Of a DNA stretch of 64,000 nucleotides, positions 8,991 to 59,039 are shown one piece after another. Below the pieces are notes generated by a model. That model had not been told where the DNA came from. It worked only from the letters and a program-made list of their open reading frames with translations, and searched no databases. The translations under genes and the position numbers were made by a program. Numbering within the stretch: the stretch's first letter is position 1; each line of letters starts with the position of its first letter. Where the stretch lies: NCBI GenBank assembly GCA_964016885.1, contig CAXHJY010000814.1:23194-87193 (forward strand), given 5' to 3'. This DNA comes from Eledone cirrhosa. Taxonomy: Eukaryota.

Positions 8991-8994
8991 AATT

Positions 8995-13099: not shown

Positions 13100-13368
<269 letters not shown>

Positions 13369-13980: not shown

Positions 13981-13984
13981 ACCA

Positions 13985-14448
13985 ACACTCACCATCTTCC
14001 TTTCCTCATTACCTACCACCCCGCACCTCATGCGGCTCGTCCACGACCTCCAGTCAGACCCCTCCACCTCCACTGAACTCACACCCCTCCACTCATTCAA
14101 GCGCGAACGCAACCTCCGGAAACTTCTCATCCATAGCTCCCTTACTCCTCACACCACAGACACCATCACCCTCCACCTCCACTGAACTCACACCCCTCCA
14201 CTCATTCAAGCGTGAACGCAACCCCCGGGTCTTCCTCATCCATAGCTCCCTTCCTCCTCACATCAACACCTTCCACCTAACTCACACCACTCCGGAACTT
14301 CATCCATAGCACCCTTCCTCCGCACATCACACACACCAGCACCCTCCACCCAACACACACCCTCTATCTCCACCCAACACACACCCTCTACCTCCACCCA
14401 ACACACACCCCTCTACCTCCACCCAACACACACCCCTCCACTCATTCA
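13985..14448 (+). mobile_element. Penelope-like element fragment (RT-to-endonuclease linker) with internal tandem reiterations
   Basis: LQSDPST...PLHSFKRERNLRKLLIHSSL matches the PLE motif LQxDP...PxxxFRRxxNLRDxLVxS. Confidence 0.7.
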
Positions 14449-14449
14449 A

Positions 14450-17400: not shown

Positions 17401-17451
17401 GTTGTACTTTAAAGCAATTAAACTCCGAGCAATGGCGGGCACTTCTGCTAG
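14450..17451 (+). mobile_element. Helitron (RepHel pseudogene) with intact 3' terminus
   Basis: Rep motifs: IISAEIP, MVHGPCG, AHINVEYC.SVKSIKY..K.INKG, YISSNE, VHLENGQRVYF, GPTSFDDLKT. PIF1 motifs: ASGIAATLL.GGRTAH, IVWDECTM, SGNFRQTLPV, LTTNMR, LCNGTRL, RLQFPVKLCFAVSINKSQGQT, FSHGQLY. A GC-rich subterminal segment precedes CTAG (17448-17451) followed by T. Walker A is deleted and the 5' end is unclear. Confidence 0.95.
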
Positions 17452-20400
17452 TATTAATATAATTTACTATGAATGACATTTATTGTAATTTTTATTTCCC
17501 TATGGCAATTAAAAAGAAGAAAAGTAAAATTTGATCTAAAAGAAATATGAAAATAGAAGCCAGCCATACATCCCTTACACCTCACATCACAAACACCACC
17601 ACCCCTCTACTCATTCAAGCGCAAACGCAACCTCCAAAACCACTTCATTCATAGCTCCCTTCCACCTCCTATCACAAACAGCACCACCCTCCACCTCCAC
17701 TCATTCAAGCACGAACGCAACCTCCAGATCTTCCTCATCCATAGCTCCCTTCCTCCTCACATGAAAAAAACACCACCACCTTCCAAGGCCCCAACATCAA
17801 ATCCCTCCCTGCCTGCCACTCTTTCTACTGCACCTCCTCCAGCTTTGTCTAGGGACTCATTTGAACGATATCTGGAGTCCCCTATGTCAAATGAACGTTG
17901 TTTCTCGCTAATATCAAATGAGGACACTGACTCATATCTTGCATTTATCTTAGATGAATACGAGGGAGAATTTCAAGAACAACAACCTCAAGGAAACAAC
18001 GAGCGAAATAGGTGACCAAGTGGATTGGGGACTTTGACCCCAGCTTTCACACTGAGTCAGGAATAAAAACAGACACTACCTACTCTGCTCAAGAAAAGAA
18101 CAAAGACAACGAGATTCCTAAGACGACTTCACTGATCAGCAGAAATGGGTGAAATACAGGCACCTAATAAAGTCAAACACAGAAGCACCAAGTCCCACTT
18201 TATTAACAGATTCTCAATTATAATTTTCTTATATTGCATGTCATATTAATATAATTTACTTTGTATGACATTTATTGTAATTTTTATTTCTCTATGGCAA
18301 TTAAAAAGAAGAAACAAAGAAATTTGATCTAAGAAAAATATGAAAATAGATGCCTGCCATAGCTCCCTTCCTCCTCACATCACAAATACCACCACACTCA
18401 CACCCCTCCACTCATTCCAGCAAGAACACAACCTCCGGAAACTTCTCATCCATAGCTCCCTTACACCTCACCACAAACACCACCACCATCCAAGGGCCCA
18501 AAAGCAAATCCTTCTCTGCCTGGCATTCCTCCTACTGCACCTCCTCCAGCTTTGTCTACGGACTCCTTTGAACGGAATCTGGAGTCCCCTATGTCAAATG
18601 AACGTTGTTTCTCGCTAATATCGAATGAGGACACTGACTCATCCGACGAATATCTTGCATTTATCTTAGATGAATACGAGGGAGAATTTCAAGAACAACA
18701 ACCACAAGGAAACAACGAGCAAAATAGGTGACCAAGTGGATTGGGGACTTTGACCCCAGCTTTAACACTGAGTCAGGAATACATACAAATGCTGTTTACT
18801 CTGCTCAAAAAAAGAACAAAGACAACGAGATTCCTAAGACGACTTCACCGATCAACAGAATTGGGTGAAATACAGGCACCTAATAAAGTCAAACACAGAA
18901 ACACCAAGTCCCACTTTATTAACAGATTCTCAATTATAATTTTCTTATATTGCATGTCATATTAATATAATTTACTTTGTATGACATTTATTGTAATTTT
19001 TATTTCTCTATGGCAATTAAAAAGAAGGAACAAAGAAATTTGATCTTAAAAAATTATGAAAATAGAAGACCGCCATAGCTCCCTTACACCTCACATCACA
19101 AACACCACCACCCTCTACCACACTCACACCCTTCTATTCATTCAAGCACGAACACAACCTCCGGACCCTGTTCACCCATAGCTCCCTTCCTCATCACATT
19201 ACAAACACCATCACCCTCCTCCACTCATTCAAGTGCAAACACAACCTCCAAAACCACTTCATTCATAGCTCCCTTCCACCTATCACAAACACCATCACAC
19301 TCCACCTCCACCAAACTCACAAACCTCCACACATTCAAGGACGAACGCAACCTCCAGATCTTCCTCATCCATAGCTCCCTTCCTCCTCACATCAAAAAAA
19401 CACCACCACCTTCCAAGGGTCCAACACCAAATCCCTTTCTGCATGCCACTCTTTCCACTGCACCTCCTCCAGCTTTGTCTACGGACTCTTTTGAACGGAA
19501 TCTGGAGTCCCCTATATCAAATGAACGTTGTTTCTCGCTAATATCAAATGAGGACACTGACTCATATCTTGCATTTATCTTAGATGAATACGAGGGAGAA
19601 TTTCAAGAACAACAACCTCAAGGAAACAACGAGCGAAATAGGTGACCAAGTGGATTGGGGACTTTGACCCCAGCTTTAACACTGAGTCAGGAATAAAAAC
19701 AAACGCTACCTACTCTGCTCAAGAAAAGAACAAAGACAACGAGATTCCTAAGACGACTTCACTGATCAGCAGAAATGGGTGAAATACAGGCACCTAATAA
19801 AGTCAAACACAGAAGCACCAAGTCCCACTTTATTAACAGATTCTCAATTATAATTTTCTTATATTGCATGTCATATTAACATAATTTACTTTGTATGACA
19901 TTTATTGTAATTTTTATTTCTCTAAGGCAATTAAAAAGAAGAAACAAAGAAATTTGATCTTAAAAAATTATGAAAATAGAAGACCGCCATAGCTCCCTTA
20001 CACCTCATATCACAAACACCACCACCCTCTACCACACTCACACCCTTCTATTCATTCAAGCACGAACACAACCTCCGGACCCTGTTCACCCATAGATCCC
20101 TTCCTCATCACATTACAGACACCATCACCCTCCTCCACTCATTCAAGTGCAAACACAACCTCCAAAACCACTTCATTCATAGCTCCCTTCCACCTCCTAT
20201 CACAAACACCATCACACACCACCTCCACCAAACTCACAAACCTCCACACATTCAAGGACGAACGCAACCTCCAGATCTTCCTCATCCATAGCTCCCTTCC
20301 TCCTCACATCAAAAAAACACCACCACCTTCCAAGGGCCCACCACCAAATCCCTTTCTGCATGCCACTCTTTCCACTGCACCTCCTCCAGCTTTGTCTACG

Positions 20401-23400
20401 GACTCTTTTGAACGGAATCTGGAGTCCCCTATGTCAAATGAACGTTGTTTCTCGCTAATATCAAATGAGGACAGTGACTCATCCGACAGACATCTTGCAT
20501 TTATCTTAGATGAATACGAGGGAGAATTTCAAGAACAACAACCACAAGGAAACAACGAGCAAAATAGGTGACCAAGTGGATTGGGGACTTTGACCCCAGC
20601 TTTAACACTGAGTCAGGCATGCAAACAAACACTACTCTACTCAAGAATAGAACAAAGACAACGAGATTCCTAAGACGACTTCACTGATCAACAGAAATGG
20701 GTGAAATACAGGCACCTAATAAAGTCAAACACTGAAGCACCAAGTCCCATTTTATTAACAGATTCTCAATTATAATTTTCTTATATTGCATGTCATATTA
20801 ATATAATTTACTTTGTATGACATTTATTGTAATTTTTATTTCTCTATGGCAATTAAAAAGAAGAAACAAAGAAATTTGATCTAAGAAAAATATGAAAATA
20901 GATGCCTGCCATAGCTCCCTTCCACCTCACATCACAAATACCACCACCACACTCACACCCCTCCACTCATTCCAGCAAGAACACAACCTCCGGAAACTTC
21001 TCATCCATAGCTCCCTTACACCTCACCACAAACACCACCACCATCCAAGGGCCCAAAAGCAAATCCTTCTCTGCCTGGCATTCCTCCTACTGCACCTCCT
21101 CCAGCTTTGTCTACGGACTCCTTTGAACGGAATCTGGAGTCCCCTATGTCACATGAACGTTGTTTCTCGCTAATATCGAATGAGGACACTGACTCATCCG
21201 ACAGACATCTTGCATTTATCTTAGATGAATACGAGGGAGAATGTCAAGAACAACAACCACAAGGAAACGAGCGAAATAGGTGACCAAGTGGATTGGGGAC
21301 TTTGACCCCAGCTTTAACACTGAGTCAGGCATACAAACAAACACTACTCTGCTCAAGAATAGAACAAAGACAACGAGATTCCTAAGACGACTTCACTGAT
21401 CAACAGAAATGGGTGAAATACAGGCACCTAATAAAGTCAAACACAGAAACACCAAGTCCCATTTTATTAACAGATTCTCAATTATAATTTTCTTATATTG
21501 CATGTCATATTAATATAATTTACTTTGTATGAGATTTATTGTAATTTTTATTTCTCTAAGGCAATTAAAAAGAAGAAACAAAGAAATTTGATCTTAAAAA
21601 ATTATGAAAATAGAAGACCGCCATAGCTCCCTTCCACCTCACATCACAAACACCACCACCACACTCACACCCCTCCACTCATTCCAGCAAGAACACAACC
21701 TCCGGAAACTTCTCATCCATAGCTCCCTTCCACCTCACATCACAAACACCACCACCCTCTACCACACTCACACCCTTCTATTCATTCAAGCACGAACACA
21801 ACCTCCGGACCCTGTTCACCCATAGCTCCCTTCCTCATCACATTACAAACACCATCACCCTCCTCCACTCATTCAAGTGCAAACACAACCTCCAAAACCA
21901 CTTCATTCATAGCTCCCTTCCACCTCTTATCACAAACACCATCACACTCCACCTCCACCAAACTCACAAACCTCCACACATTCAAGGACGAACGCAACCT
22001 CCAGATCTTCCTCATCCATAGCTCCCTTCCTCCTCACATCAAAAAAACACCACCACCTTCCAAGGGTCCAACACCAAATCCCTTTCTGCATGCCACTCTT
22101 TCCACTGCACCTCCTCCAGCTTTGTCTACGGACTCTTTTGAACGGAATCTGGAGTCCCCTATGTCAAATGAACGTTGTTTCTCGCTAATATCAAATGAGG
22201 ACACTGACTCATATCTTGCATTTATCTTAGATGAATACGAGGGAGAATTTCAAGAACAACAACCTCAAGGAAACAACGAGCGAAATAGGTGACCAAGTGG
22301 ATTGGGGACTTTGACCCCAGCTTTAACACTGAGTCAGGAATAAAAACAGACACTACCTACTCTGCTCAAGAAAAGAACAAAGACAACGAGATTCCTAAGA
22401 CGACTTCACTGATCAGCAGAAATGGGTGAAATACAGGCACCTAATAAAGTCAAACACAGAAGCACCAAGTCCCACTTTATTAACAGATTCTCAATTATAA
22501 TTTTCTTATATTGCATGTCATATTAATATAATTTACTTTGTATGACATTTATTGTAATTTTTATTTCTCTATGGCAATTAAAAAGAAGAAACAAAGAAAT
22601 TTGATCTAAGAAAAATATGAAAATAGATGCCTGCCATAGCTCCCTTCCTCCTCACATCACAAATACCACCACACTCACACCCCTCCACTCATTCCAGCAA
22701 GAACACAACCTCCGGAAACTTCTCATCCATAGCTCCCTTACACCTCACCACAAACACCACCACCATCCAAGGGCCCAAAAGCAAATCCTTCTCTGCCTGG
22801 CATTCCTCCTACTGCACCTCCTCCAGCTTTGTCTACGGACTCCTTTGAACGGAATCTGGAGTCCCCTATGTCACATGAACGTTGTTTCTCGCTAATATCG
22901 AATGAGGACACTCACTCATCCGACAGACATCTTGCATTTATCTTAGATGAATACGAGGGAGAATTTCAAGAACAACAACCACAAGGAAACAACGAGCAAA
23001 ATAGGTGACCAAGTGGATTGGGGACTTTGACCCCAGCTTTAACACTGAGTCAAGAATACATACAAATGCTGTTTACTCTGCTCAAAAAAAGAACAAAGAC
23101 AACGAGATTCCTAAGACGACTTCACCGATCAACAGAAATGGGTGAAATACAGGCACCTAATAAAGTCAAACACAGAAACACCAAGTCCCACTTTATTAAC
23201 AGATTCTCAATTATAATTTTCTTATATTGCATGTCATATTAATATAATTTACTTTGTATGACATTTATTGTAATTTTTATTTCTCTATGGCAATTAAAAA
23301 GAAGAAACAAAGAAATTTGATCTTAAAAAATTATGAAAATAGAAGACCGCCATAGCTCCCTTACACCTCATATCACAAACACCACCACCCTCTACCACAC

Positions 23401-26400
23401 TCACACCCTTCTATTCATTCAAGCACGAACACAACCTCCGGACCCTGTTCACCCATAGCTCCCTTCCTCATCACATTACAAACACCATCACCCTCCTCCA
23501 CTCATTCAAGTGCAAACACAACCTCCAAAACCACTTCATTCATAGCTCCCTTCCACCTCTTATCACAAACACCATCACACTCCACCTCCACCAAACTCAC
23601 AAACCTCCACACATTCAAGGACGAACGCAACCTCCAGATCTTCCTCATCCATAGCTCCCTTCCTCCTCACATCAAAAAAACACCACCACCTTCCAAGGGT
23701 CCAACACCAAATCCCTTTCTGCATGCCACTCTTTCCACTGCACCTCCTCCAGCTTTGTCTACGGACTCTTTTGAACGGAATCTGGAGTCCCCTATGTCAA
23801 ATGAACGTTGTTTCTCGCTAATATCAAATGAGGACACTGACTCATATCTTGCATTTATCTTAGATGAATACGAGGGAGAATTTCAAGAACAACAACCTCA
23901 AGGAAACAACGAGCGAAATAGGTGACCAAGTGGATTGGGGACTTTGACCCCAGCTTTAACACTGAGTCAGGAATAAAAACAGACACTACCTACTCTGCTC
24001 AAGAAAAGAACAAAGACAACGAGATTCCTAAGACGACTTCACTGATCAGCAGAAATGGGTGAAATACAGGCACCTAATAAAGTCAAACACAGAAGCACCA
24101 AGTCCCACTTTATTAACAGATTCTCAATTATAATTTTCTTATATTGCATGTCATATTAATATAATTTACTTTGTATGACATTTATTGTAATTTTTATTTC
24201 TCTATGGCAATTAAAAAGAAGAAACAAAGAAATTTGATCTAAGAAAAATATGAAAATAGATGCCTGCCATAGCTCCCTTCCTCCTCACATCACAAATACC
24301 ACCACACTCACACCCCTCCACTCATTCCAGCAAGAACACAACCTCCGGAAACTTCTCATCCATAGCTCCCTTACACCTCACCACAAACACCACCACCATC
24401 CAAGGGCCCAAAAGCAAATCCTTCTCTGCCTGGCATTCCTCCTACTGCACCTCCTCCAGCTTTGTCTACGGACTCCTTTGAACGGAATCTGGAGTCCCCT
24501 ATGTCACATGAACGTTGTTTCTCGCTAATATCGAATGAGGACACTCACTCATCCGACAGACATCTTGCATTTATCTTAGATGAATACGAGGGAGAATGTC
24601 AACAACAACAACCACAAGGAAACAACGAGCAAAATAGGTGACCAAGTGGATTGGGGACTTTGACCCCAGCTTTAACACTGAGTCAAGAATACATACAGAT
24701 GCTGTTTACTCTGCTCAAAAAAAGAACAAAGACGAGATTCCTAAGACGACTTCACCGATCAACAGAAATGGGTGAAATACAGGCACCTAATAAAGTCAAA
24801 CACAGAAACACCAAGTCCCACTTTATTAACAGATTCTCAATTATAATTTTCTTATATTGCATGTCATATTAATATAATTTACTTTGTATGACATTTATTG
24901 TAATTTTTATTTCTCTATGGCAATTAAAAAGAAGAAACAAAGAAATTTGATCTTAAAAAATTATGAAAATAGAAGACCGCCATAGCTCCCTTACACCTCA
25001 TATCACAAACACCACCACCCTCTACCACACTCACACCCTTCTATTCATTCAAGCACGAACACAACCTCCGGACCCTGTTCACCCATAGCTCCCTTCCTCA
25101 TCACATTACAAACACCATCACCCTCCTCCACTCATTCAAGTGCAAACACAACCTCCAAAACCACTTCATTCATAGCTCCCTTCCACCTCTTATCACAAAC
25201 ACCATCACACTCCACCTCCACCAAACTCACAAACCTCCACACATTCAAGGACGAACGCAACCTCCAGATCTTCCTCATCCATAGCTCCCTTCCTCCTCAC
25301 ATCAAAAAAACACCACCACCTTCCAAGGGTCCAACACCAAATCCATTTCTGCATGCCACTCTTTCCACTGCACCTCCTCCAGCTTTGTCTACGGACTCTT
25401 TTGAACGGAATCTGGAGTCCCCCATGTCAAATGAACGTTGTTTCTCGCTAATATCAAATGAGGACACTGACTCATATCTTGCATTTATCTTAGATGAATA
25501 CGAGGGAGAATTTCAAGAACAACAACCTCAAGGAAACAACGAGCGAAATAGGTGACCAAGTGGATTGGGGACTTTGACCCCAGCTTTAACACTGAGTCAG
25601 GAATAAAAACAGACACTACCTACTCTGCTCAAGAATAGAACAAAGACAACGAGATTCCTAAGACGACTTCACTGATCAGCAGAAATGGGTGAAATACAGG
25701 CACCTAATAAAGTCAAACACAGAAGCACCAAGTCCCACTTTATTAACAGATTCTCAATTATAATTTTCTTATATTGCATGTCATATTAATATAATTTACT
25801 TTGTATGACATTTATTGTAATTTTTATTTCTCTATGGCAATTAAAAAGAAGAAACAAAGAAATTTGATCTTAAAAAATTATGAAAATAGAAGACCGCCAT
25901 AGCTCCCTTCCTCCTCACATCACAAACACCACCACCACACTCACACCCCTCCACTCATTCCAGCAAGAACACAACCTCCGGAAACTTCTCATCCATAGCT
26001 CCCTTACACCTCACCACAAACACCACCACCATCCAAGGGCCCAAAAGCAAATCCTTCTCTGCCTGGCATTCCTCCTACTGCACCTCCTCCAGCTTTGTCT
26101 ACGGACTCCTTTGAACGGAATCTGGAGTCCCCTATGTCACATGAACGTTGTTTCTCGCTAATATCGAATGAGGACACTCACTCATCCGACAGACATCTTG
26201 CATTTATCTTAGATGAATACGAGGGAGAATTTCAAGAACAACAACCACAAGGAAACAACGAGCAAAATAGGTGACCAAGTGGATTGGGGACTTTGACCCC
26301 AGCTTTAACACTGAGTCAGGAATACATACAGATGCTGTTTACTCTGCTCAAAAAAAGAACAAAGACAACGAGATTCCTAAGACGACTTCACCGATCAACA

Positions 26401-29400
26401 GAAATGGGTGAAATACAGGCACCTAATAAAGTCAAACACAGAAGCACCAAGTCCCATTTTATTAACAGATTCTCAATTATAATTTTCTTATATTGCATGT
26501 CATATTAATATAATTTACTTTGTATGACATTTATTGTAATTTTTATTTCTCTATGGCAATTAAAAAGAAGAAACAAAGAAATTTGATCTTAAAAAATTAT
26601 GAAAATAGAAGACCGCCATAGCTCCCTTACACCTCATATCACAAACACCACCACCCTCTACCACACTCACACCCTTCTATTCATTCAAGCACGAACACAA
26701 CCTCTGGACCCTGTTCACCCATAGCTCCCTTCCTCATCACATTACAAACACCATCACCCTCCTCCACTCATTCAAGTGCAAACACAACCTCCAAAACCAC
26801 TTCATTCATAGCTCCCTTCCACCTCTTATCACAAACACCATCACACTCCACCTCCACCAAACTCACAAACCTCCACACATTCATGGACGAACGCAACCTC
26901 CAGATCTTCCTCATCCATAGCTCCCTTCCTCCTCACATCAAAAAAACACCACCACCTTCCAAGGGTCCAACACCAAATCCCTTTCTGCATGCCACTCTTT
27001 CCACTGCACCTCCTCCAGCTTTGTCTACGGACTCTTTTGAACGGAATCTGGAGTCCCCTATGTCAAATGAACGTTGTTTCTCGCTAATATCAAATGAGGA
27101 CACTGACTCATATCTTGCATTTATCTTAGATGAATACGAGGGAGAATTTCAAGAACAACAACCTCAAGGAAACAACGAGCGAAATAGGTGACCAAGTGGA
27201 TTGGGGACTTTGACCCCAGCTTTAACACTGAGTCAGGAATAAAAACAGACACTACCTACTCTGCTCAAGAATAGAACAAAGACAACGAGATTCCTAAGAC
27301 GACTTCACTGATCAGCAGAAATGGGTGAAATACAGGCACCTAATAAAGTCAAACACAGAAGCACCAAGTCCCACTTTATTAACAGATTCTCAATTATAAT
27401 TTTCTTATATTGCATGTCATATTAATATAATTTACTTTGTATGACATTTATTGTAATTTTTATTTCTCTATGGCAATTAAAAAGAAGAAACAAAGAAATT
27501 TGATCTTAAAAAATTATGAAAATAGAAGACCGCCATAGCTCCCTTCCTCCTCACATCACAAACACCACCACCACACTCACACCCCTCCACTCATTCCAGC
27601 AAGAACACAACCTCCGGAAACTTCTCATCCATAGCTCCCTTACACCTCACCACAAACACCACCACCATCCAAGGGCCCAAAAGCAAATCCTTCTCTGCCT
27701 GGCATTCCTCCTACTGCACCTCCTCCAGCTTTGTCTACGGACTCCTTTGAACGGAATCTGGAGTCCCCTATGTCACATGAACGTTGTTTCTCGCTAATAT
27801 CGAATGAGGACACTCACTCATCCGACAGACATCTTGCATTTATCTTAGATGAATACGAGGGAGAATTTCAAGAACAACAACCACAAGGAAACAACGAGCA
27901 AAATAGGTGACCAAGTGGATTGGGGACTTTGACCCCAGCTTTAACACTGAGTCAGGAATACATACAGATGCTGTCTACTCTGCTCAAAAAAAGAACAAAG
28001 ACAACGAGATTCCTAAGACGACTTCACCGATCAACAGAAATGGGTGAAATACAGGCACCTAATAAAGTCAAACACAGAAGCACCAAGTCCCATTTTATTA
28101 ACAGATTCTCAATTATAATTTTCTTATATTGCATGTCATATTAATATAATTTACTTTGTATGACATTTATTGTAATTTTTATTTCTCTATGGCAATTAAA
28201 AAGAAGAAACAAAGAAATTTGATCTTAAAAAATTATGAAAATAGAAGACCGCCATAGCTCCCTTACACCTCATATCACAAACACCACCACCCTCTACCAC
28301 ACTCACACCCTTCTATTCATTCAAGCACGAACACAACCTCTGGACCCTGTTCACCCATAGCTCCCTTCCTCATCACATTACAAACACCATCACCCTCCTC
28401 CACTCATTCAAGTGCAAACACAACCTCCAAAACCACTTCATTCATAGCTCCCTTCCACCTCTTATCACAAACACCATCACACTCCACCTCCACCAAACTC
28501 ACAAACCTCCACACATTCATGGACGAACGCAACCTCCAGATCTTCCTCATCCATAGCTCCCTTCCTCCTCACATCAAAAAAACACCACCACCTTCCAAGG
28601 GTCCAACACCAAATCCCTTTCTGCATGCCACTCTTTCCACTGCACCTCCTCCAGCTTTGTCTACGGACTCTTTTGAACGGAATCTGGAGTCCCCTATGTC
28701 AAATGAACGTTGTTTCTCGCTAATATCAAATGAGGACACTGACTCATATCTTGCATTTATCTTAGATGAATACGAGGGAGAATTTCAAGAACAACAACCT
28801 CAAGGAAACAACGAGCGAAATAGGTGACCAAGTGGATTGGGGACTTTGACCCCAGCTTTAACACTGAGTCAGGAATAAAAACAGACACTACCTACTCTGC
28901 TCAAGAATAGAACAAAGACAACGAGATTCCTAAGACGACTTCACTGATCAGCAGAAATGGGTGAAATACAGGCACCTAATAAAGTCAAACACAGAAGCAC
29001 CAAGTCCCACTTTATTAACAGATTCTCAATTATAATTTTCTTATATTGCATGTCATATTAATATAATTTACTTTGTATGACATTTATTGTAATTTTTATT
29101 TCTCTATGGCAATTAAAAAGAAGAAACAAAGAAATTTGATCTTAAAAAATTATGAAAATAGAAGACCGCCATAGCTCCCTTCCTCCTCACATCACAAACA
29201 CCACCACCACACTCACACCCCTCCACTCATTCCAGCAAGAACACAACCTCCGGAAACTTCTCATCCATAGCTCCCTTACACCTCACCACAAACACCACCA
29301 CCATCCAAGGGCCCAAAAGCAAATCCTTCTCTGCCTGGCATTCCTCCTACTGCACCTCCTCCAGCTTTGTCTACGGACTCCTTTGAACGGAATCTGGAGT

Positions 29401-38400: not shown

Positions 38401-41400
38401 TTCCAAGGGTCCAACACCAAATCCCTTTCTGCATGCCACTCTTTCCACTGCACCTCCTCCAGCTTTGTCTACGGACTCTTTTGAACGGAATCTGGAGTCC
38501 CCTATGTCAAATGAACGTTGTTTCTCGCTAATATCAAATGAGGACACTGACTCATATCTTGCATTTATCTTAGATGAATACGAGGGAGAATTTCAAGAAC
38601 AACAACCTCAAGGAAACAACGAGCGAAATAGGTGACCAAGTGGATTGGGGACTTTGACCCCAGCTTTAACACTGAGTCAGGAATAAAAACAAACGCTACC
38701 TACTCTGCTCAAGAAAAGAACAAAGACAACGAGATTCCTAAGACGACTTCACTGATCAGCAGAAATGGGTGAAATACAGGCACCTAATAAAGTCAAACAC
38801 AGAAGCACCAAGTCCCACTTTATTAACAGATTCTCAATTATAATTTTCTTATATTGCATGTCATATTAATATAATTTACTTTGTATGACATTTATTGTAA
38901 TTTTTATTTCTCTATGGCAATTAAAAAGAAGAAACAAAGAAATTTGATCTAAGAAAAATATGAAAATAGATGCCTGCCATAGCTCCCTTCCTCCTCACAT
39001 CACAAATACCACCACACTCACACCCCTCCACTCATTCCAGCAAGAACACAACCTCCGGAAACTTCTCATCCATAGCTCCCTTACACCTCACCACAAACAC
39101 CACCACCATCCAAGGGCCCAAAAGCAAATCCTTCTCTGCCTGGCATTCCTCCTACTGCACCTCCTCCAGCTTTGTCTACGGACTCCTTTGAACGGAATCT
39201 GGAGTCCCCTATGTCACATGAACGTTGTTTCTCGCTAATATCGAATGAGGACACTCACTCATCCGACAGACATCTCGCATTTATCTTAGATGAATACGAG
39301 GGAGAATTTCAAGAACAACAACCACAAGGAAACAACGAGCAAAATAGGTGACCAAGTGGATTGGGGACTTTGACCCCAGCTTTAACACTGAGTCAGGAAT
39401 ACATACAAATGCTGTTTACTCTGCTCAAAAAAAGAACAAAGACATCGAGATTCCTAAGACGACTTCACCGATCAACAGAATTGGGTGAAATACAGGCACC
39501 TAATAAAGTCAAACACAGAAGCACCAAGTCCCACTTTATTAACAGATTCTCAATTATAATTTTCTTATATTGCATGTCATATTAATATAATTTACTTTGT
39601 ATGACATTTATTGTAATTTTTATTTCTCTATGGCAATTAAAAAGAAGAAACAAAGAAATTTGATCTTAAAAAATTATGAAAATAGAAGACCGCCATAGCT
39701 CCCTTCCTCCTCACATCACAAACACCACCACCCTCTACCACACTCACACCCTTCTATTCATTCAAGCACGAACACAACCTCCGGACCCTGTTCACCCATA
39801 GCTCCCTTCCTCATCACATTACAAACACCATCACCCTCCTCCACTCATTCAAGTGCAAACACAACCTCCAAAACCACTTCATTCATAGCTCCCTTCCACC
39901 TCCTATCAGAAACACCATCACACTCCACCTCCACCAAACTCACAAACCTCCACACATTCAAGGTCGAACGCAAACTCCAGATCTTCCTCATCCATAGCTC
40001 CCTTCCTCCTCACATCAAAAAAACACCACCACCTTCCAAGGGTCCAACACCAAATCCCTTTCTGCATGCCACTCTTTCCACTGCACCTCCTCCAGCTTTG
40101 TCTACGGACTCTTTTGAACGGAATCTGGAGTCCCCTATGTCAAATGAACGTTGTTTCTCGCTAATATCAAATGAGGACACTGACTCATCCGACGAATATC
40201 TTGCATTTATCTTAGATGAATACGAGGGAGAATTTCAAGAACAACAACCTCAAGGAAACAACGAGCGAAATAGGTGACCAAGTGGATTGGGGACTTTGAC
40301 CCCAGCTTTAACACTGAGTCAGGAATAAAAACAAACGCTACCTACTCTGCTCAAGAAAAGAACAAAGACAACGAGATTCCTAAGACGACTTCACTGATCA
40401 GCAGAAATGGGTGAAATACAGGCACCTAATAAAGTCAAACACAGAAGCACCAAGTCCCACTTTATTAACAGATTCTCAATTATAATTTTCTTATATTGCA
40501 TGTCATATTAATATAATTTACTTTGTATGACATTTATTGTAATTTTTATTTCTCTATGGCAATTAAAAAGAAGAAACAAAGAAATTTGATCTAAGAAAAA
40601 TATGAAAATAGATGCCTGCCATAGCTCCCTTCCACCTCACATCACAAATACCACCACCACACTCACACCTCTCCACTCATTCCAGCAAGAACACAACCTC
40701 CGGAAACTTCTCATCCATAGCTCCCTTACACCTCACCACAAACACCACCACCATCCAAGGGCCCAAAAGCAAATCCTTCTCTGCCTGGCATTCCTCCTAC
40801 TGCACCTCCTCCAGCTTTGTCTACGGACTCCTTTGAACGGAATCTGGAGTCCCCTATGTCACATGAACGTTGTTTCTCGCTAATATCGAATGAGGACACT
40901 CACTCATCCGACAGACATCTTGCATTTATCTTAGATGAATACGAGGGAGAATTTCAAGAACAACAACCACAAGGAAACAACGAGCAAAATAGGTGACCAA
41001 GTGGATTGGGGACTTTGACCCCAGCTTTAACACTGAGTCAAGAATACATACAAATGCTGTTTACTCTGCTCAAAAAAAGAACAAAGACAACGAGATTCCT
41101 AAGACGACTTCACTGATCAACAGAAATGGGTGAAATACAGGCACCTAATAAAGTCAAACACAGAAACACCAAGTCCCACTTTATTAACAGATTCTCAATT
41201 ATAATTTTCTTATATTGCATGTCATATTAATATAATTTACTTTGTATGACATTTATTGTAATTTTTATTTCTCTATGGCAATTAAAAAGAAGAAACAAAG
41301 AAATTTGATCTTAAAAAATTATGAAAATAGAAGACCGCCATAGCTCCCTTACACCTCATATCACAAACACCACCACCCTCTACCACACTCACACCCTTCT

Positions 41401-44400
41401 ATTCATTCAAGCACGAACACAACCTCCGGACCCTGTTCACCCATAGCTCCCTTCCTCATCACATTACAAACACCATCACCCTCCTCCACTCATTCAAGTG
41501 CAAACACAACCTCCAAAACCACTTCATTCATAGCTCCCTTCCACCTCTTATCACAAACACCATCACACTCCACCTCCACCAAACTCACAAACCTCCACAC
41601 ATTCAAGGACGAACGCAACCTCCAGATCTTCCTCATCCATAGCTCCCTTCCTCCTCACATCAAAAAAACACCACCACCTTCCAAGGGTCCAACACCAAAT
41701 CCCTTTCTGCATGCCACTCTTTCCACTGCACCTCCTCCAGCTTTGTCTACGGACTCTTTTGAACGGAATCTGGAGTCCCCTATGTCAAATGAACGTTGTT
41801 TATCGCTAATATCAAATGAGGACACTGACTCATATCTTGCATTTATCTTAGATGAATACGAGGGAGAATTTCAAGAACAACAACCTCAAGGAAACAACGA
41901 GCGAAATAGGTGACCAAGTGGATTGGGGACTTTGACCCCAGCTTTAACACTGAGTCAGGAATAAAAACAGACACTACCTACTCTGCTCAAGAAAAGAACA
42001 AAGACAACGAGATTCCTAAGACGACTTCACTGATCAGCAGAAATGGGTGAAATACAGGCACCTAATAAAGTCAAACACAGAAGCACCAAGTCCCACTTTA
42101 TTAACAGATTCTCAATTATAATTTTCTTATATTGCATGTCATATTAATATAATTTACTTTGTATGACATTTATTGTAATTTTTATTTCTCTATGGCAATT
42201 AAAAAGAAGAAACAAAGAAATTTGATCTAAGAAAAATATGAAAATAGATGCCTGCCATAGCTCCCTTCCTCCTCACATCACAAATACCACCACACTCACA
42301 CCCCTCCACTCATTCCAGCAAGAACACAACCTCCGGAAACTTCTCATCCATAGCTCCCTTACACCTCACCACAAACACCACCACCATCCAAGGGCCCAAA
42401 AGCAAATCCTTCTCTGCCTGGCATTCCTCCTACTGCACCTCCTCCAGCTTTGTCTACGGACTCCTTTGAACGGAATCTGGAGTCCCCTATGTCACATGAA
42501 CGTTGTTTCTCGCTAATATCGAATGAGGACACTCACTCATCCGACAGACATCTTGCATTTATCTTAGATGAATACGAGGGAGAATTTCAAGAACAACAAC
42601 CACAAGGAAACAACGAGCAAAATAGGTGACCAAGTGGATTGGGGACTTTGACCCCAGCTTTAACACTGAGTCAAGAATACATACAAATGCTGTTTACTCT
42701 GCTCAAAAAAAGAACAAAGACAACGAGATTCCTAAGACGACTTCACCGATCAACAGAAATGGGTGAAATACAGGCACCTAATAAAGTCAAACACAGAAAC
42801 ACCAAGTCCCACTTTATTAACAGATTCTCAATTATAATTTTCTTATATTGCATGTCATATTAATATAATTTACTTTGTATGACATTTATTGTAATTTTTA
42901 TTTCTCTATGGCAATTAAAAAGAAGAAACAAAGAAATTTGATCTTAAAAAATTATGAAAATAGAAGACCGCCATAGCTCCCTTACACCTCATATCACAAA
43001 CACCACCACCCTCTACCACACTCACACCCTTCTATTCATTCAAGCACGAACACAACCTCCGGACCCTGTTCACCCATAGCTCCCTTCCTCATCACATTAC
43101 AAACACCATCACCCTCCTCCACTCATTCAAGTGCAAACACAACCTCCAAAACCACTTCATTCATAGCTCCCTTCCACCTCTTATCACAAACACCATCACA
43201 CTCCACCTCCACCAAACTCACAAACCTCCACACATTCAAGGACGAACGCAACCTCCAGATCTTCCTCATCCATAGCTCCCTTCCTCCTCACATCAAAAAA
43301 ACACCACCACCTTCCAAGGGTCCAACACCAAATCCCTTTCTGCATGCCACTCTTTCCACTGCACCTCCTCCAGCTTTGTCTACGGACTCTTTTGAACGGA
43401 ATCTGGAGTCCCCTATGTCAAATGAACGTTGTTTATCGCTAATATCAAATGAGGACACTGACTCATATCTTGCATTTATCTTAGATGAATACGAGGGAGA
43501 ATTTCAAGAACAACAACCTCAAGGAAACAACGAGCGAAATAGGTGACCAAGTGGATTGGGGACTTTGACCCCAGCTTTAACACTGAGTCAGGCATACAAA
43601 CAAACACTACTCTGCTCAAAAAAAGAACAAAGACAACGAGATTCCTAAGACGACTTCACTGATCAGCAGAAATGGGTGAAATACAGGCACCTAATAAAGT
43701 CAAACACAGAAACACCAAGTCCCACTTTATTAACAGATTCTCAATTATAATTTTCTTATATTGCATGTCATATTAATATAATTTACTTTGTATGACATTT
43801 ATTGTAATTTTTATTTCTCTAAGGCAATTAAAAAGAAGAAACAAAGAAATTTGATCTAAGAAAAATATGAAAATAGATGCCTGCCATAGCTCCCTTCCTC
43901 CTCACATCACAAACACCACCACACTCACACCCCTCCACTCATTCCAGCAAGAACACAACCTCCGGAAACTTCTCATCCATAGCTCCCTTACACCTCACCA
44001 CAAACACCACCACCATCCAAGGGCCCAAAAGCAAATCCTTCTCTGCCTGGCATTCCTCCTACTGCACCTCCTCCAGCTTTGTCTACGGACTCCTTTGAAC
44101 GGAATCTGGAGTCCCCTATGTCAAATGAACGTTGTTTCTCGCTAATATCGAATGAGGACACTGACTCATCCGACAGACATCTTGCATTTATCTTCGAGGA
44201 ATACGAGGGAGAATTTCAAGAACAACAACCACAAGGAAACAACGAGCAAAATAGGTGACCAAGTGGATTGGGGACTTTGACCCCAGCTTTAACACTGAGT
44301 CAGGCATACAAACAAATACTACTCTGCTCAAAAAAAGAACAAAGACAACGAGATTCCTAAGACGACTTCACTGATCAGCAGAAATGGGTGAAATACAGGC

Positions 44401-47400
44401 ACCTAATAAAGTCAAACACAGAAACACCAAGTCCCACTTTATTAACAGATTCTCAATTATAATTTTCTTATATTGCATGTCATATTAATATAATTTACTT
44501 TGTATGACATTTATTGTAATTTTTATTTCTCTATGGCAATTAAAAAGAAGAAACAAAGAAATTTGATCTAAGAAAAATATGAAAATAGATGCCTGCCATA
44601 GCTCCCTTCCACCTCACATCACAAATACCACCACCACACTCACACCCCTCCACTCATTCCAGCAAGAACACAACCTCCGGAAACTTCTCATCCATAGCTC
44701 CCTTACACCTCACCACAAACACCACCACCATCCAAGGGCCCAAAAGCAAATCCTTCTCTGCCTGGCATTCCTCCTACTGCACCTCCTCCAGCTTTGTCTA
44801 CGGACTCCTTTGAACGGAATCTGGAGTCCCCTATGTCACATGAACGTTGTTTCTCGCTAATATCGAATGAGGACACTCACTCATCCGACAGACATCTTGC
44901 ATTTATCTTAGATGAATACGAGGGAGAATGTCAAGAACAACAACCACAAGGAAACGAGCGAAATAGGTGACCAAGTGGATTGGGGACTTTGACCCCAGCT
45001 TTAACACTGAGTCAGGCATACAAACAAACACTACTCTGCTCAAGAATAGAACAAAGACAACGAGATTCCTAAGACGACTTCACTGATCAACAGAAATGGG
45101 TGAAATACAGGCACCTAATAAAGTCAAACACTGAAGCACCAAGTCCCATTTTATTAACAGATTCTCAATTATAATTTTCTTATATTGCATGTCATATTAA
45201 CATAATTTACTTTGTATGACATTTATTGTAATTTTTATTTCTCTATGGCAATTAAAAAGAAGAAACAAAGAAATTTGATCTTAAAAAATTATGAAAATAG
45301 AAGACCGCCATAGCTCCCTTCCACCTCACATCACAAACACCACCACCCTCTACCACACTCACACCCTTCTATTCATTCAAGCACGAACACAACCTCCGGA
45401 CCCTGTTCACCCATAGCTCCCTTCCTCATCACATTACAAACACCATCACCCTCCTCCACTCATTCAAGTGCAAACACAACCTCCAAAACCACTTCATTCA
45501 TAGCTCCCTTCAACCTCCTATCACAAACACCATCACACTCCACCTCCACCAAACTCACAAACCTCCACACATTCAAGGACGAACGCAACCTCCAGATCTT
45601 CCTCATCCATAGCTCCCTTCCTCCTCACATCAAAAAAACACCACCACCTTCCAAGGGCCCACCACCAAATCCCTTTCTGCATGCCACTCTTTCCACTGCA
45701 CCTCCTCCAGCTTTGTCTACGGACTCTTTTGAACGGAATCTGGAGTCCCCTATGTCAAATGAACGTTGTTTCTCGCTAATATCAAATGAGGACAGTGACT
45801 CATCCGACAGACATCTTGCATTTATCTTAGATGAATACGAGGGAGAATTTCAAGAACAACAACCACAAGGAAACAACGAGCAAAATAGGTGACCAAGTGG
45901 ATTGGGGACTTTGACCCCAGCTTTAACACTGAGTCAGGCATGCAAACAAACACTACTCTGCTCAAGAATAGAACAAAGACAACGAGATTCCTAAGACGAC
46001 TTCACTGATCAACAGAAATGGGTGAAATACAGGCACCTAATAAAGTCAAACACAGAAGCACCAAGTCCCACTTTATTAACAGATTCTCAATTATAATTTT
46101 CTTATATTGCATGTCATATTAATATAATTTACTTTGTATGACATTTATTGTAATTTTTATTTCTCTATGGCAATTAAAAAGAAGAAACAAAGAAATTTGA
46201 TCTAAGAAAAATATGAAAATAGATGCCTGCCATAGCTCCCTTCCTCCTCACATCACAAATACCACCACCACACTCACACCCCTCCACTCATTCCAGCAAG
46301 AACACAACCTCCGGAAACTTCTCATCCATAGCTCCCTTACACCTCACCACAAACACCACCACCATCCAAGGGCCCAAAAGCAAATCCTTCTCTGCCTGGC
46401 ATTCCTCCTACTGCACCTCCTCCAGCTTTGTCTACGGACTCCTTTGAACGGAATCTGGAGTCCCCTATGTCACATGAACGTTGTTTCTCGCTAATATCGA
46501 ATGAGGACACTCACTCATCCGACAGACATCTTGCATTTATCTTAGATGAATACGAGGGAGAATGTCAAGAACAACAACCACAAGGAAACAACGAGCGAAA
46601 TAGGTGACCAAGTGGATTGGGGACTTTGACCCCAGCTTTAACACTGAGTCAGGCATGCAAACAAATACTACTCTACTCAAGAATAGAACAAAGACAACGA
46701 GATTCCTAAGACGACTTCACTGATCAGCAGAAATGGGTGAAATACAGGCACCTAATAAAGTCAAACACAGAAGCACCAAGTCCCACTTTATTAACAGATT
46801 CTCAATTATAATTTTCTTATATTGCATGTCATATTAATATAATTTACTTTGTATGACATTTATTGTAATTTTTATTTCTCTATGGCAATTAAAAAGAAGA
46901 AACAAAGAAATTTGATCTAAGAAAAATATGAAAATAGATGCCTGCCATAGCTCCCTTCCTCCTCACATCACAAATACCACCACCACACTCACACCCCTCC
47001 ACTCATTCCAGCAAGAACACAACCTCCGGAAACTTCTCATCCATAGCTCCCTTACACCTCACCACAAACACCACCACCATCCAAGGGCCCAAAAGCAAAT
47101 CCTTCTCTGCCTGGCATTCCTCCTACTGCACCTCCTCCAGCTTTGTCTACGGACTCCTTTGAACGGAATCTGGAGTCCCCTATGTCACATGAACGTTGTT
47201 TCTCGCTAATATCGAATGAGGACACTCACTCATCCGACAGACATCTTGCATTTATCTTAGATGAATACGAGGGAGAATGTCAAGAACAACAACCACAAGG
47301 AAACAACGAGCGAAATAGGTGACCAAGTGGATTGGGGACTTTGACCCCAGCTTTAACACTGAGTCAGGCATGCAAACAAATACTACTCTACTCAAGAATA

Positions 47401-48207
47401 GAACAAAGACAACGAGATTCCTAAGACGACTTCACTGATCAGCAGAAATGGGTGAAATACAGGCACCTAATAAAGTCAAACACAGAAGCACCAAGTCCCA
47501 CTTTATTAACAGATTCTCAATTATAATTTTCTTATATTGCATGTCATATTAATATAATTTACTTTGTATGACATTTATTGTAATTTTTATTTCTCTATGG
47601 CAATTAAAAAGAAGAAACAAAGAAATTTGATCTAAGAAAAATATGAAAATAGATGCCTGCCATAGCTCCCTTCCTCCTCACATCACAAATACCACCACCA
47701 CACTCACACCCCTCCACTCATTCCAGCAAGAACACAACCTCCGGAAACTTCTCATCCATAGCTCCCTTCCTCCTCACATCACAAACACCACCACCTCCCA
47801 AGGGCCAAACAGCCAATCCCTTTCTGCCTGCCTCTCTTTCCAATGCACCTCCTCCAGCTTTGTCTATGGACTCCTTTGAACGGAATCTGGAGTCCCCTAT
47901 GTCACATGAACGTTGTTTCTTGCGAATATCGAATGAGGACACTGACTCATCCGACAGACATCTTGCATTTATCTTAGATGAATACGAGGGAGAATTTCAA
48001 GAACAACAACCACAAGGAAACAACGAGCGAAATAGGTGACCAAGTGGATTGGGGACTTTGACCCCAGCTTTAACACTGAGTCAGACATACCTATAAATGG
48101 TACCGACTCTGCTCAAGAATAGAACAAAGAGAATGAGATTCTGATGACCACTTCACCAATCAACAGAAATGGATGAAATACAGGCGCCTACTGAAGTCAA
48201 AGGCAGA
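17452..48207 (+). repeat. ~30.7 kb satellite: ~38 monomers (~715 bp and ~920 bp, mostly alternating, ~1.63 kb dimer), Penelope/parvovirus-NS1 chimera
   Basis: ORF track recurs every 1626-1642 bp (22617 to 43867) and every 712-715 bp where short units are adjacent. Each monomer is a PLE piece (HSFQQEHNLRKLLIHSSL..HSSYCTSSSFVYG) plus an NS1-B C-terminus (ERCFSLISNEDTDS(SDR)HLAFILDEY) and its 3' UTR. Confidence 0.95.
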
Positions 48208-48224
48208 AGCCAACCTATTAGTAA

Positions 48225-48362
48225 GGGAGGTCATACCTGTATTTTTCAGCTAGAGGTGCATAAGGATTTGTTATGTGCATCGTTTTTGCAAACTAAGACC
48301 ACAGCTGCAAAACTATTCAAACCCTTCAATGATTACATTCCAGGAAGACTTATTTGGTCTTC
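48225..48362 (+). mobile_element. hAT (Charlie/Buster-like) transposase fragment
   Basis: IFQLEVHKDLLCASFLQTKTTAAKLFKPFNDYIPGRLIWS resembles the Buster segment IFQEDVHEDMLCALLLPTNTTAAELFKSLNDYISGKLNWS; second copy at ~49725-49858. Confidence 0.75.
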
Positions 48363-48564
48363 AAAACTAAAGTATTATTTCGTTTTCCGTCACTACACAC
48401 ACATTGTGAACTTTTCTATCTTCTGTAGGAAAAAATCCTGATTTATTACAAACTCTCTATCTCTCTATTCGGCGTATGTTAAAGAAAACACAGACTTCTA
48501 ATTTCCTTTTTTCAAGGGGAGCAACCCATACAAAACCACTATCCATGGTGAGCAACTCTTTGTT

Positions 48565-48850
48565 ACATTGAAGGTCCCAACAGCCAATCCCTCTTTGCCT
48601 GGCACTCTTTCCACTGCACCTCCTCCAGCTTTGTCTACGGACACCTTTGCACGGAATGTGGAGTCCTCTATGTCAGATGGACAGGACAGCAATTGGCAGA
48701 CTGGTTCGCCAAACACCTTGATAAGGTCCTTCATTTTGAGAGCAACTTCACCACTATAGCCTCGGTGTTGCCCAAAGAGAGAGCACATCGTGTTGGGTAC
48801 GACGCTGTGTAACAAGAAGAACAACACTTGGATCTGACAACGAAATGGAG
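48565..48850 (+). mobile_element. Penelope-like GIY-YIG endonuclease fragment (un-fused relative of the satellite's PLE half)
   Basis: An unannotated frame reads GPNSQSLFAWHSFHCTSSSFVYGHLCTECGVLYVRWTGQQLADWFAKHL, matching FxCTSxxxVYxxxCxxCxxxYVGxTxxxLxxRFxEH. Confidence 0.8.
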
Positions 48851-48884
48851 TCAGCAACATAATAACCATCAAGACAAACACACA

Positions 48885-49722: not shown

Positions 49723-49724
49723 GA

Positions 49725-50332: not shown

Positions 50333-50344
50333 CTTTCAGGCCCA

Positions 50345-59035: not shown

Positions 59036-59039
59036 ACCA

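What the first reader, a model, noticed from the sequence alone, without database searches (positions are those of the whole stretch)
17452..48207. 30-kb satellite whose monomer fuses a Penelope GIY-YIG fragment to a parvovirus NS1 3' end
Seen: the first half of the monomer matches the PLE fragments at 13985-14448 and 48565-48850 up to ...ggagtcccctatgtca. It then switches to (a/c)atgaacgttgtttctcgctaatatc..., which reads ERCFSLISNEDTDSSDEYLAFILDEY, homologous to EHCFSLISNEDSDSANEHLSFIL (~58940) and EYCFSSLSNGDSDSSDEHLFYIL (~55204). The end SNTEAPSPTLLTDSQL* parallels SNRDAESPVLISDEL* (~55468-55515). The UTR aattataattttctt...gcatgtcat.ttaatataattt matches 55508-55548. Inference: a virus-derived sequence has been amplified ~38-fold as satellite DNA. 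If the locus makes piRNAs, this would multiply the dose of antiviral guides.
Basis: partly seen in the sequence, partly recalled or inferred. Interest (0 to 1): 0.88.

Follow-up and report, generated by a model that had tools for sequence, protein, structure and literature searches.

The report
Virus-transposon hybrid tandem repeat array
A dead scrap of a parvovirus-like gene became joined to a piece of a retrotransposon, and the pair was copied 38 times head to tail at one place in this animal's genome, most likely by ordinary repeat expansion; whether it also supplies antiviral small RNAs is untested.

Summary
17452-48207 is 38 head-to-tail units of two kinds (about 716 and 917 bp, a 1633-bp dimer in the centre). 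Each unit is 246-456 bp of a Penelope-like element (linker to mid GIY-YIG) plus about 470 bp of a parvovirus-like NS1 3' end and UTR. The junction occurs only here in the genome, and RAD reads from two animals of another study span it, so an artefact is unlikely. The array grew in place: Penelope pieces on both flanks are its closest relatives, edge units are most diverged, and the viral half is broken in 36 of 36 units read. The 55-kb NS1 copy is a cousin, not the donor. Best reading: a chance junction amplified by unequal exchange; another NS1 end is tandemly amplified on contig C27 amid non-viral minisatellites. The piRNA-dose idea is untested: coding elements here all face one way (9 of 9), but no RNA data were available and the guides match no other virus copy well. 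Virus-derived arrays are known in plants. Side finding: this virus family places its capsid gene upstream of NS1, the reverse of described parvoviruses.

The parts
17452..48207 (+). Tandem array of 38 chimeric units (18 long, 20 short; 1633-bp dimer in units 6-33; last unit cut short)
   Evidence: only locus in G000
22521..22627 (+). Example short unit 7: 107 bp of viral 3' UTR (belongs with the NS1 piece of the unit before it)
   Evidence: aligns to the UTR of the C3 copy at 69%
22628..22873 (+). Example short unit 7: 246-bp Penelope-like part, linker to the Y-V of the second GIY-YIG motif
22874..23236 (+). Example short unit 7: 363-bp NS1 C-terminal piece, stop after 44 codons, then frameshift
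23344..23799 (+). Example long unit 8: 456-bp Penelope-like part with internal 87-109 bp duplications and an SphI site 79 bp before the junction
23800..24153 (+). Example long unit 8: 354-bp NS1 piece carrying the 9-bp deletion variant
13985..14449 (+). Left-flank Penelope-like piece: 5' extension plus linker; shares the loss of the Zn-knuckle linker with the units
14450..17451 (+). 5'-truncated Helitron; its 3' CTAG abuts the first unit at an A^T-type site, its 5' break lies at a short microhomology with the Penelope linker
   Evidence: Pfam PIF1 1.8e-36; family ends compared
13666..13848 (+). PLA2-like piece of the second (b) virus lineage, just upstream of the left Penelope piece
   Evidence: tblastn 54% over 68 aa, 2e-15
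48208..48488 (+). 281-bp local duplicate of 49704-49988 (90%) that cuts off unit 38
48510..48760 (+). Right-flank Penelope-like piece; overlaps the units' last 112 bp (85-88%) and continues through GIY-YIG past the junction
54421..55650 (+). Broken NS1-like copy with 3' UTR and a GGGA-loop hairpin (55615-55650); cousin of the viral half
57561..59555 (+). Broken NS1-like copy joined to the C-terminal third of a capsid gene
6205..6675 (+). NS1 3' piece with its own small 33-bp x 3.2 tandem repeat
8334..10460 (+). PLA2/capsid N-terminal piece followed by a broken NS1 of lineage b

Best explanation
A locally grown, non-coding tandem array. Step 1 (inferred): in a region already dense in dead transposons and parvovirus-like insertions, about 470 bp from the right end of a viral genome came to lie between two overlapping stretches of one Penelope-like copy (PLE 5' - X - V - X - PLE 3'), by DNA-level repair with a few bases of microhomology, either as an insertion with duplication or as trimming of a viral insert inside a partial-tandem PLE. 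Step 2 (well supported): unequal crossing-over and gene conversion between the X copies multiplied X-V, two variants formed, and their dimer then swept the centre. Step 3 (shown for the ends, order inferred): a Helitron plus a deletion removed most of the leftmost unit, and a local duplication cut the rightmost. The array encodes nothing. It probably lies in an antisense-transcribed, piRNA-cluster-like region and may yield small RNAs, but as a by-product, not as the cause of its growth.
For: Junction found 36 times, all in this array, 0 elsewhere. Right-flank PLE plus 15 sampled units form one clade, 97/96 support, against 7 dispersed PLE copies. Left flank and units 2, 8, 38 have 5-7 bp between two anchors where 5 of 7 dispersed copies have 57-73 bp (2 not measurable). 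Units i,i+2 are 98-100% alike through most of the centre, i,i+1 92-96%; unit 38 is 90% like its neighbours. L-S identity is 88.7% in the GIY part but 95.3% in the NS part, and mosaic units exist (11, 13, 15), as exchange between types predicts. Stop at codon 40-44 in 36 of 36 units read. No poly(A) at the viral end; it runs to the arm of the hairpin seen in other copies. An independent 108 bp x 28 array of an NS1 end sits on C27 among many arrays that did not match NS1 or capsid; 60% of that 30 kb is tandem repeat, 27% of the left 23 kb of this contig, 1.8% of 18 dispersed control loci.
Against: The predicted intact right end (...V-X-PLE 3') is rearranged, so the founding structure is inferred, not seen. 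The window outside the array is only 8% tandem repeat, and other virus-bearing loci (C12, C3) 2%, so a general tandem-prone setting is not true of every such locus. The microhomologies are 2-6 bases. Neutrality is not tested: the array is present in at least three animals, and the one-strand bias leaves room for function.
Confidence: 0.7

Rival explanations
1. Selected amplifier of antiviral guides: the region is a uni-strand piRNA cluster read from the minus strand, and the array was favoured because it multiplies antisense piRNAs against the 3' end and UTR of the virus's NS1 message.
For: 11 of 84 plus-strand frames (9 elements) and 0 of 64 minus-strand frames hit Pfam (two-sided 0.004 if the 9 are independent, my arithmetic); all 17 tblastn hits listed are on plus. 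Antisense 5'U piRNA-like RNAs from parvovirus-like EVEs are reported in starfish and anemone, and from a rhabdo-like EVE in a mollusc (PMC6085071, passages). Yam EGV1 tandem arrays give siRNAs (PMC5014472, passages); mosquito satellite piRNA clusters exist (PMC7919454, passages).
Against: 0 of 444 26-mers within 3 mismatches in 7 of 8 other copies, 9 of 444 in the eighth; best database protein 38% over 34 aa. SINE-like repeats in the window lie in both orientations (3 opposite pairs). In the left 23 kb only 1 of 110 frames hit Pfam, a host-type zinc finger. Being in a cluster would not show that the amplification was selected.
Confidence: 0.12
2. Penelope-made: the PLE reverse transcriptase switched template between viral RNA and its own RNA and laid down tandem copies, as for partial-tandem PLE insertions and retrozymes.
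For: PLEs insert as partial tandems (PMC8557442, passages); tandem non-LTR retrozymes are PLE derivatives (10.64898/2026.07.22.740005, abstract). Both halves are in sense orientation.
Against: No hammerhead in Rfam scans of 13000-24000 or of 4 PLE loci; a core-motif scan of 13401-49000 gave 1 loose match, in the diverged last unit. The unit holds mid-ORF sequence, not the pLTR; no poly(A); no copy at any other locus; edge divergence and a dimer do not come from one insertion.
Confidence: 0.1
3. One burst of rolling-circle copying (Helitron read-through, NS1 acting in trans, or an extrachromosomal circle) made the array.
For: A Helitron 3' end abuts unit 1; NS1 genes with long open frames exist in the genome; the 1633-bp dimer could have been a circle.
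Against: Units hold no Helitron sequence, 6 of 6 other Helitron ends read are followed by TA-rich DNA and no array, the viral half stops before the terminal palindrome, and diverged edges with three or more unit variants need many rounds.
Confidence: 0.06
4. Assembly artefact on an unplaced 87-kb contig.
For: The contig is unplaced and ends in TA repeats; no laid piece spans the array.
Against: Units differ from each other in structured ways. Contig depth in run X1 is 128-235 on units against 2.2-5.1 (5 contigs) and 9.1 (2 contigs) on the flanks; RAD runs X5 and X6 have 126 and 95 reads starting at the SphI site 45680 and crossing the junction, with both 9-bp variants (99 of 169, 82 of 130 deleted).
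Confidence: 0.02

Closest known systems
Tandem endogenous geminiviral sequences: GRD in Nicotiana, EGV1 in yam (PMC5014472, passages read)
   Same: ssDNA-virus DNA held as direct-repeat arrays at one or few loci; EGV1 arrays may exceed 23 kb and give small RNAs.
   Different: Plant geminiviruses; units are viral (rep plus origin), many with open frames. Here an animal, a parvovirus-like 3' end without origin, dead, and fused to a retroelement, with a two-unit higher-order repeat.
Parvovirus (IHHNV) EVE clusters in Penaeus monodon (PMC9357335, passages read)
   Same: Several parvoviral fragments mixed with retrotransposon pieces in one cluster, called piRNA-like.
   Different: Those are scrambled in both directions and 95-99% like known virus; the word 'tandem' does not occur in that text. 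Here all pieces face one way, and one is amplified 38-fold.
Penelope-like elements, Neptune/Nematis type, and PLE-derived retrozymes (PMC8557442 passages; 10.64898/2026.07.22.740005 abstract)
   Same: C-terminal GIY-YIG with a Cys-rich linker in dispersed relatives; tandem arrangement.
   Different: The unit lacks pLTR, hammerhead, RT and the Zn knuckle, and is not dispersed.
Satellite-repeat piRNA clusters of culicine mosquitoes (PMC7919454, passages read)
   Same: Alternating two-unit repeats at one locus, proposed to amplify piRNA output.
   Different: Not virus-derived, short units, shown to make piRNAs; here no RNA evidence.
Penaeus monodon metallodensovirus and other Parvoviridae (PDB 6wh3; review PMC11357303 sections 1.1.1 and 6.1)
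   Same: SF3 NS1, capsid similarity (E 5e-8 over 57 aa), PLA2 motif as in many parvoviruses.
   Different: The review puts NS left and VP right in all parvoviruses; in this family VP precedes NS1 on the same strand in 6 of 7 places where both were seen. The original PmMDV paper could not be read.

Membership tests
Satellite DNA / higher-order repeat array | Head-to-tail units over many kilobases | tested here: met
   38 units, 30.8 kb
Satellite DNA / higher-order repeat array | Homogenised centre, higher-order period, diverged edges | tested here: met
   1633-bp period; i,i+2 mostly 98-100%, last unit 90%
Satellite DNA / higher-order repeat array | High copy number or several chromosomal sites | tested here: not met
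   One locus in the assembly; depth allows roughly 26-107 copies but is not a copy number
Penelope-like element (EN+, Neptune/Nematis type) | C-terminal GIY-YIG endonuclease | tested here: met
   Dispersed relative L052: atlas 0.95, 21 of 30 hits GIY-YIG clusters; L084 Pfam GIY-YIG only E 0.038, below cut-off; units match it by tblastn 2e-10. The window's own frame has no Pfam hit
Penelope-like element (EN+, Neptune/Nematis type) | CX2-5CxxC linker between RT and EN | tested here: met
   Read directly in L084, L088, L052; definition from PMC8557442. Deleted in the units and left flank
Penelope-like element (EN+, Neptune/Nematis type) | TERT-like RT domain and clade placement by RT tree | tested here: inconclusive
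   The one copy read in full (L084) is 5'-truncated, with only what I recognise from memory as the thumb region; no RT tree made
Non-LTR retrozyme | Hammerhead ribozyme in each unit | tested here: not met
Non-LTR retrozyme | Arrays dispersed at many loci | tested here: not met
Parvoviridae-derived EVE (source of the viral half) | NS1 with SF3 helicase | tested here: met
   Relatives in G000 score 58-68 bits on Parvo_NS1, cut-off 20; best solved match is an NS1. The units carry only the C-terminal end, linked
Parvoviridae-derived EVE (source of the viral half) | HUH endonuclease motif | tested here: met
   H-F-H invariant in 12 of 12 aligned proteins; motif label from my knowledge
Parvoviridae-derived EVE (source of the viral half) | Parvoviral capsid gene | tested here: met
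   PLA2 domain above cut-off in 3 of 3 long frames; PmMDV capsid E 5e-8; 40% to a protein named capsid in Octopus vulgaris. Fold not predicted
Parvoviridae-derived EVE (source of the viral half) | Palindromic termini | tested here: inconclusive
   One 439-nt palindrome joins two NS1 3' ends on C998; a mirrored G-rich motif at both ends was seen by eye only
Parvoviridae-derived EVE (source of the viral half) | NS cassette left, VP cassette right | tested here: not met
   VP precedes NS1 in 6 places; the window's 57561-59555 is the one opposite case, a broken fusion
Parvoviridae-derived EVE (source of the viral half) | Placement among the subfamilies by NS1 tree | not tested
   No named reference NS1 set was at hand
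Uni-strand piRNA cluster | Dense TE/EVE fragments in one orientation | tested here: met
   9 of 9 coding elements on plus; SINE-like repeats mixed
Uni-strand piRNA cluster | Antisense precursor and 26-31 nt 5'U small RNAs | not testable with these tools
   No RNA run listed

The most novel reading that the evidence does not exclude
The region is a uni-strand piRNA cluster of a cephalopod-type host that collects insertions of an undescribed parvovirus lineage with capsid-before-NS1 gene order, and the 38-unit array is a heritable dose amplifier of antisense guides against the 3' end of that virus's message: an animal satellite DNA born from an endogenous virus and kept for immunity, with copy number as a testable resistance trait.
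Probability: 0.12. Interest if true: 0.85.

Novelty: new variant of a known kind. Interest (0 to 1): 0.5.

Why it matters
It is an unusually readable case of a satellite being born: both parents, both junctions, the flanking remains and the step from monomer to dimer can all be seen at one locus. It extends virus-derived tandem arrays, described in plants, to an animal and a parvovirus-like source (no such case came up). It offers a clean test of whether EVE dose matters for piRNA immunity, since a 38-copy and several 1-copy viral pieces share one cluster. The family behind it, with at least 20 dispersed copies and a reversed gene order, may interest parvovirus specialists more than the array.

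Tried and rejected
No RNA holder listed. X1 may be the assembly's own sample, so it shows that the repeat is in raw data but is not independent. Word-indexed search with the 58-kb NS1 N-terminal half found nothing; the unindexed search found 24 proteins, the 10 looked up all unnamed. Four scans for free viral relatives found none (viral contigs; metagenome contigs); short-pattern scans are weak, so this is not evidence of absence. The frame upstream of lineage-b NS1 has a weak PLA2 motif (E 0.016) but no solved match, so it is not shown to be a capsid. The atlas hit for the capsid (0.85) is a lead only. No structure prediction was obtained. A search for PLE copies by the flank's own 3' part found only itself, so the 7 dispersed PLE copies came and a closer copy may have been missed. 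Units 30 and 32 were dropped from the stop-codon count because the anchor peptide was absent. The idea that the 55-kb copy is the donor was rejected (49% aa against 65% for the C3 copy). A hairpin within the unit's UTR folds no better than shuffles (z 0.17). No absolute date is given: no mutation rate was measured. Earlier findings of this scan: nothing. Three paper look-ups failed (Bejarano 1996; Penzes 2020 by DOI and by PMC id). No supplements were opened; Tables S2-S3 of PMC5013282 may list mollusc sequences related to this family.
Full report
1. The observation. The window is G000:C841:23194-87193, the right end of an unplaced 87-kb contig of a 3.0-Gb genome. Cutting 17452-48207 at a shared anchor gives 38 units: 18 long (791-1013 bp) and 20 short (661-719 bp), strictly alternating from unit 6 to 33, so that 1633 bp is the commonest k-mer distance. 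Each unit holds a Penelope-like part (246-251 bp in short, 332-552 in long units), an NS1-like part (347-363 bp; 303 in the cut last unit) and 105-107 bp of UTR. One unit's second half aligns over 445 bp to 55202-55622 (score 176; best of 200 shuffles 48), to 58941-59048 (73.5; 42) and to 6379-6497 (62.5; 44); five other targets were within shuffle range.

2. Is it real? A DNA search of the genome with the viral half gave 41 matches, 39 in this array and 2 at one C3 locus at 71-76%; the exact 22-base junction occurs 36 times, all here. Four of 7 listed runs were laid on 44480-60500. In X1, contigs on the units have depth 128-235, five flank contigs 2.2-5.1 and two 9.1; the tool warns that this is no copy number, and X1 may be the assembly's source. 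In RAD runs X5 and X6, from another study, 126 and 95 reads start at the SphI site at 45680, 79 bp before the junction, and cross it; 99 of 169 and 82 of 130 carry the 9-bp deletion that 12 of the 16 SphI-bearing units carry in the assembly. The chimera and both variants are thus in other animals. No laid piece spans the array.

3. The viral half. The 55-kb frame found 43 matches in the genome, on more than a dozen contigs. Long frames among them score 58-68 bits on Parvo_NS1 (cut-off 20), best solved match an NS1, with an invariant H-F-H motif in 12 of 12 aligned proteins. A linked frame has a PLA2 domain, matches the Penaeus monodon metallodensovirus capsid (E 5e-8) and a protein named capsid in Octopus vulgaris (40%). 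That hit, and repeats I recall as octopus-like, suggest a cephalopod host; this is inference. The unit's peptide is 65% like the C3 copy and 49% like the 55-kb copy, so the donor was a separate insertion whose remainder is not in the assembly. In 36 of 36 units read it stops after 40-44 codons; 2 units were not read. It ends without poly(A), at a few bases resembling the 5' arm of a GGGA-loop hairpin that follows the UTR in other copies, which favours viral DNA over mRNA as the source (inference from 6-7 bases).

4. The Penelope half. Dispersed relatives show linker, Cys knuckle and GIY-YIG (atlas 0.95; Pfam only E 0.038), the Neptune/Nematis layout of PMC8557442 (passages). The unit runs from the linker to the Y-V of the second motif. 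Two results place the origin here. The right-flank piece, which continues past the junction, groups with 15 sampled units at 97/96 against 7 dispersed copies. The left-flank piece shares with units 2, 8 and 38 the loss of the knuckle: 5-7 bp between anchors against 57-73 bp in 5 of 7 dispersed copies, 2 not measurable, nor unit 1. The PLE and viral sides share ATG-x-AC at the junction. The array therefore sits inside the remains of one PLE copy or partial tandem.

5. The ends. Left: a Helitron (PIF1 1.8e-36) of a dispersed family ends in CTAG before the first T of unit 1; its 5' part is cut at 14450 where it shares a short motif with the PLE linker. A Helitron insertion into a leftmost unit followed by a deletion explains this. 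Right: unit 38 is cut by a 281-bp local duplicate of 49704-49988, so the founding right end is not seen intact.

6. How it grew. Next-but-one units are 98-100% alike through most of the centre (96-98.5% around units 18-22), neighbours 92-96%, unit 38 90%. Long and short types are 88.7% alike in the GIY part and 95.3% in the NS part, and units 11, 13 and 15 are mosaics (tree). Diverged edges, a later dimer and mosaics are what unequal crossing-over with conversion gives (my knowledge of satellite evolution). No hammerhead was found and there is no second locus, against a retrozyme-like route (10.64898/2026.07.22.740005, abstract only). Tandem growth is not peculiar to this piece: an NS1 end is amplified 28 x 108 bp on C27 among arrays that did not match NS1 or capsid; tandem repeats cover 60% of that 30 kb, 27% of the left 23 kb of this contig and 1.8% of 18 control loci, but only 8% of the window outside the array and 2% of the C12 and C3 virus loci.

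7. The piRNA idea. Of 148 frames outside the array, 11 of 84 plus and 0 of 64 minus frames hit Pfam, 9 separate elements; all 17 tblastn hits listed are plus. This is the layout of a cluster read from the minus strand, which would give antisense guides. SINE-like repeats are mixed, and the left 23 kb gave 1 hit in 110 frames. Antisense piRNA-like RNAs from parvovirus-like EVEs are reported in starfish and anemone (PMC6085071, passages). But guides from the array would be narrow: 0 of 444 26-mers within 3 mismatches in 7 of 8 other copies, 9 in the eighth. I put the chance that the region makes some piRNAs at about one half (judgement), and that the array was selected for dose at 0.12.

8. What is known. 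Tandem arrays of geminiviral DNA are described in Nicotiana and yam, the latter possibly over 23 kb and with siRNAs (PMC5014472, passages). Parvoviral EVE clusters are described in shrimp (PMC9357335 and PMC12287923, passages), parvovirus-related sequences in molluscs (PMC5013282, passages; no 'octop' or 'cephalop' in its main text; supplements not opened), satellite piRNA clusters in mosquitoes (PMC7919454, passages), and a totivirus-derived tandem array in yeasts (PMC13756089, listing only). Searches for a parvovirus-derived satellite in animals or for cephalopod parvoviral EVEs listed none; the library lacks most subscription papers.

9. Side finding. Capsid precedes NS1 on the same strand at C12 (twice), C998, C27, C25 and C2; in four junctions read the capsid stop lies a few dozen bases before the NS1 start. 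The window's 57561-59555 is the one opposite case, a broken NS1 joined to a capsid end. A 439-nt palindrome joins two NS1 ends on C998. A review states that all parvoviruses have NS left and VP right (PMC11357303, sections 1.1.1 and 6.1 read); a 2026 lineage has a PLA2 frame upstream but VP still downstream (PMC13426907, passages); a search for reversed order listed nothing relevant (PMC11125579 and PMC12115719, passages). The PmMDV paper could not be read, and no free virus was found to confirm the order.

10. Verdict. Real, correctly described in its essentials, and a new variant of a known kind: a single-locus, non-coding array grown in place from a chance junction of a Penelope relic and a parvovirus-like 3' end (0.7). 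Function as an antiviral amplifier is possible but unshown. Interest 0.5, part of it owed to the virus family behind the repeat.

Noticed in passing
L094, L096-L097, L092, L095, L025 (G000 C998, C12, C27, C25, C2): In this parvovirus-like family a PLA2-bearing capsid gene lies upstream of NS1 on the same strand, the capsid stop a few dozen bases before the NS1 start in 4 junctions read; described parvoviruses have NS left, VP right. One opposite, broken case is in the window (57561-59555).
   Followed up: partly
L094:6072-6520 (G000 C998): A 439-nt palindrome joins two NS1 3' ends tail to tail, as a rolling-hairpin dimer intermediate would.
   Followed up: partly
L089-L090, G000:C27:17606567-17609592: A second, independent tandem array of an NS1 C-terminal piece (108 bp x 28, 97% matches), among many other minisatellites; 30 kb away an 80 bp x 17 array interrupts a capsid gene.
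   Followed up: partly
window 55615-55650; L041:8753-8782; C12, C25 copies: A 13-16 bp stem with a GGGA loop followed by a T run lies downstream of the NS1 UTR in several copies; stems differ in sequence but stay paired (z -2.5 and -3.9).
   Followed up: partly
window 3500-17450 and 48200-63400: All recognisable coding relics (LINE, Tc1, Helitron, pogo-like, gag-like, Tx1-like, viral) face the plus strand; at the C12 locus hAT, PIF1, zinc-knuckle and viral frames all face minus (17 chosen frames).
   Followed up: partly
window 8736-10460, 52286-53140, 59611-60425; L097: A second NS1 lineage (b), about 25% like lineage a, sits beside lineage a here and on C12 and C2; the frame upstream of it has a weak PLA2 motif and no known match.
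   Followed up: partly
P0057-P0061: Five related capsid-like proteins with adjacent accession numbers on one Octopus vulgaris chromosome suggest a tandem cluster of related insertions in that species.
   Followed up: no
window 55824-56050: A further NS1 N-terminal fragment begins about 170 bp after the hairpin, without a capsid gene between.
   Followed up: no
window 1722-3497 and 12765-13073: Unrelated minisatellites, 61 bp x about 25-29 and 49 bp x 6.3, of unknown origin.
   Followed up: no
window 51711-51851 and 52600-52739: 140-bp inverted repeats (96%) enclose a lineage-b viral piece at 52286-52600, perhaps capture by a non-autonomous DNA transposon.
   Followed up: no
L044:4275-4445: A single C2H2 zinc-finger relic in the left part of the contig.
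   Followed up: no
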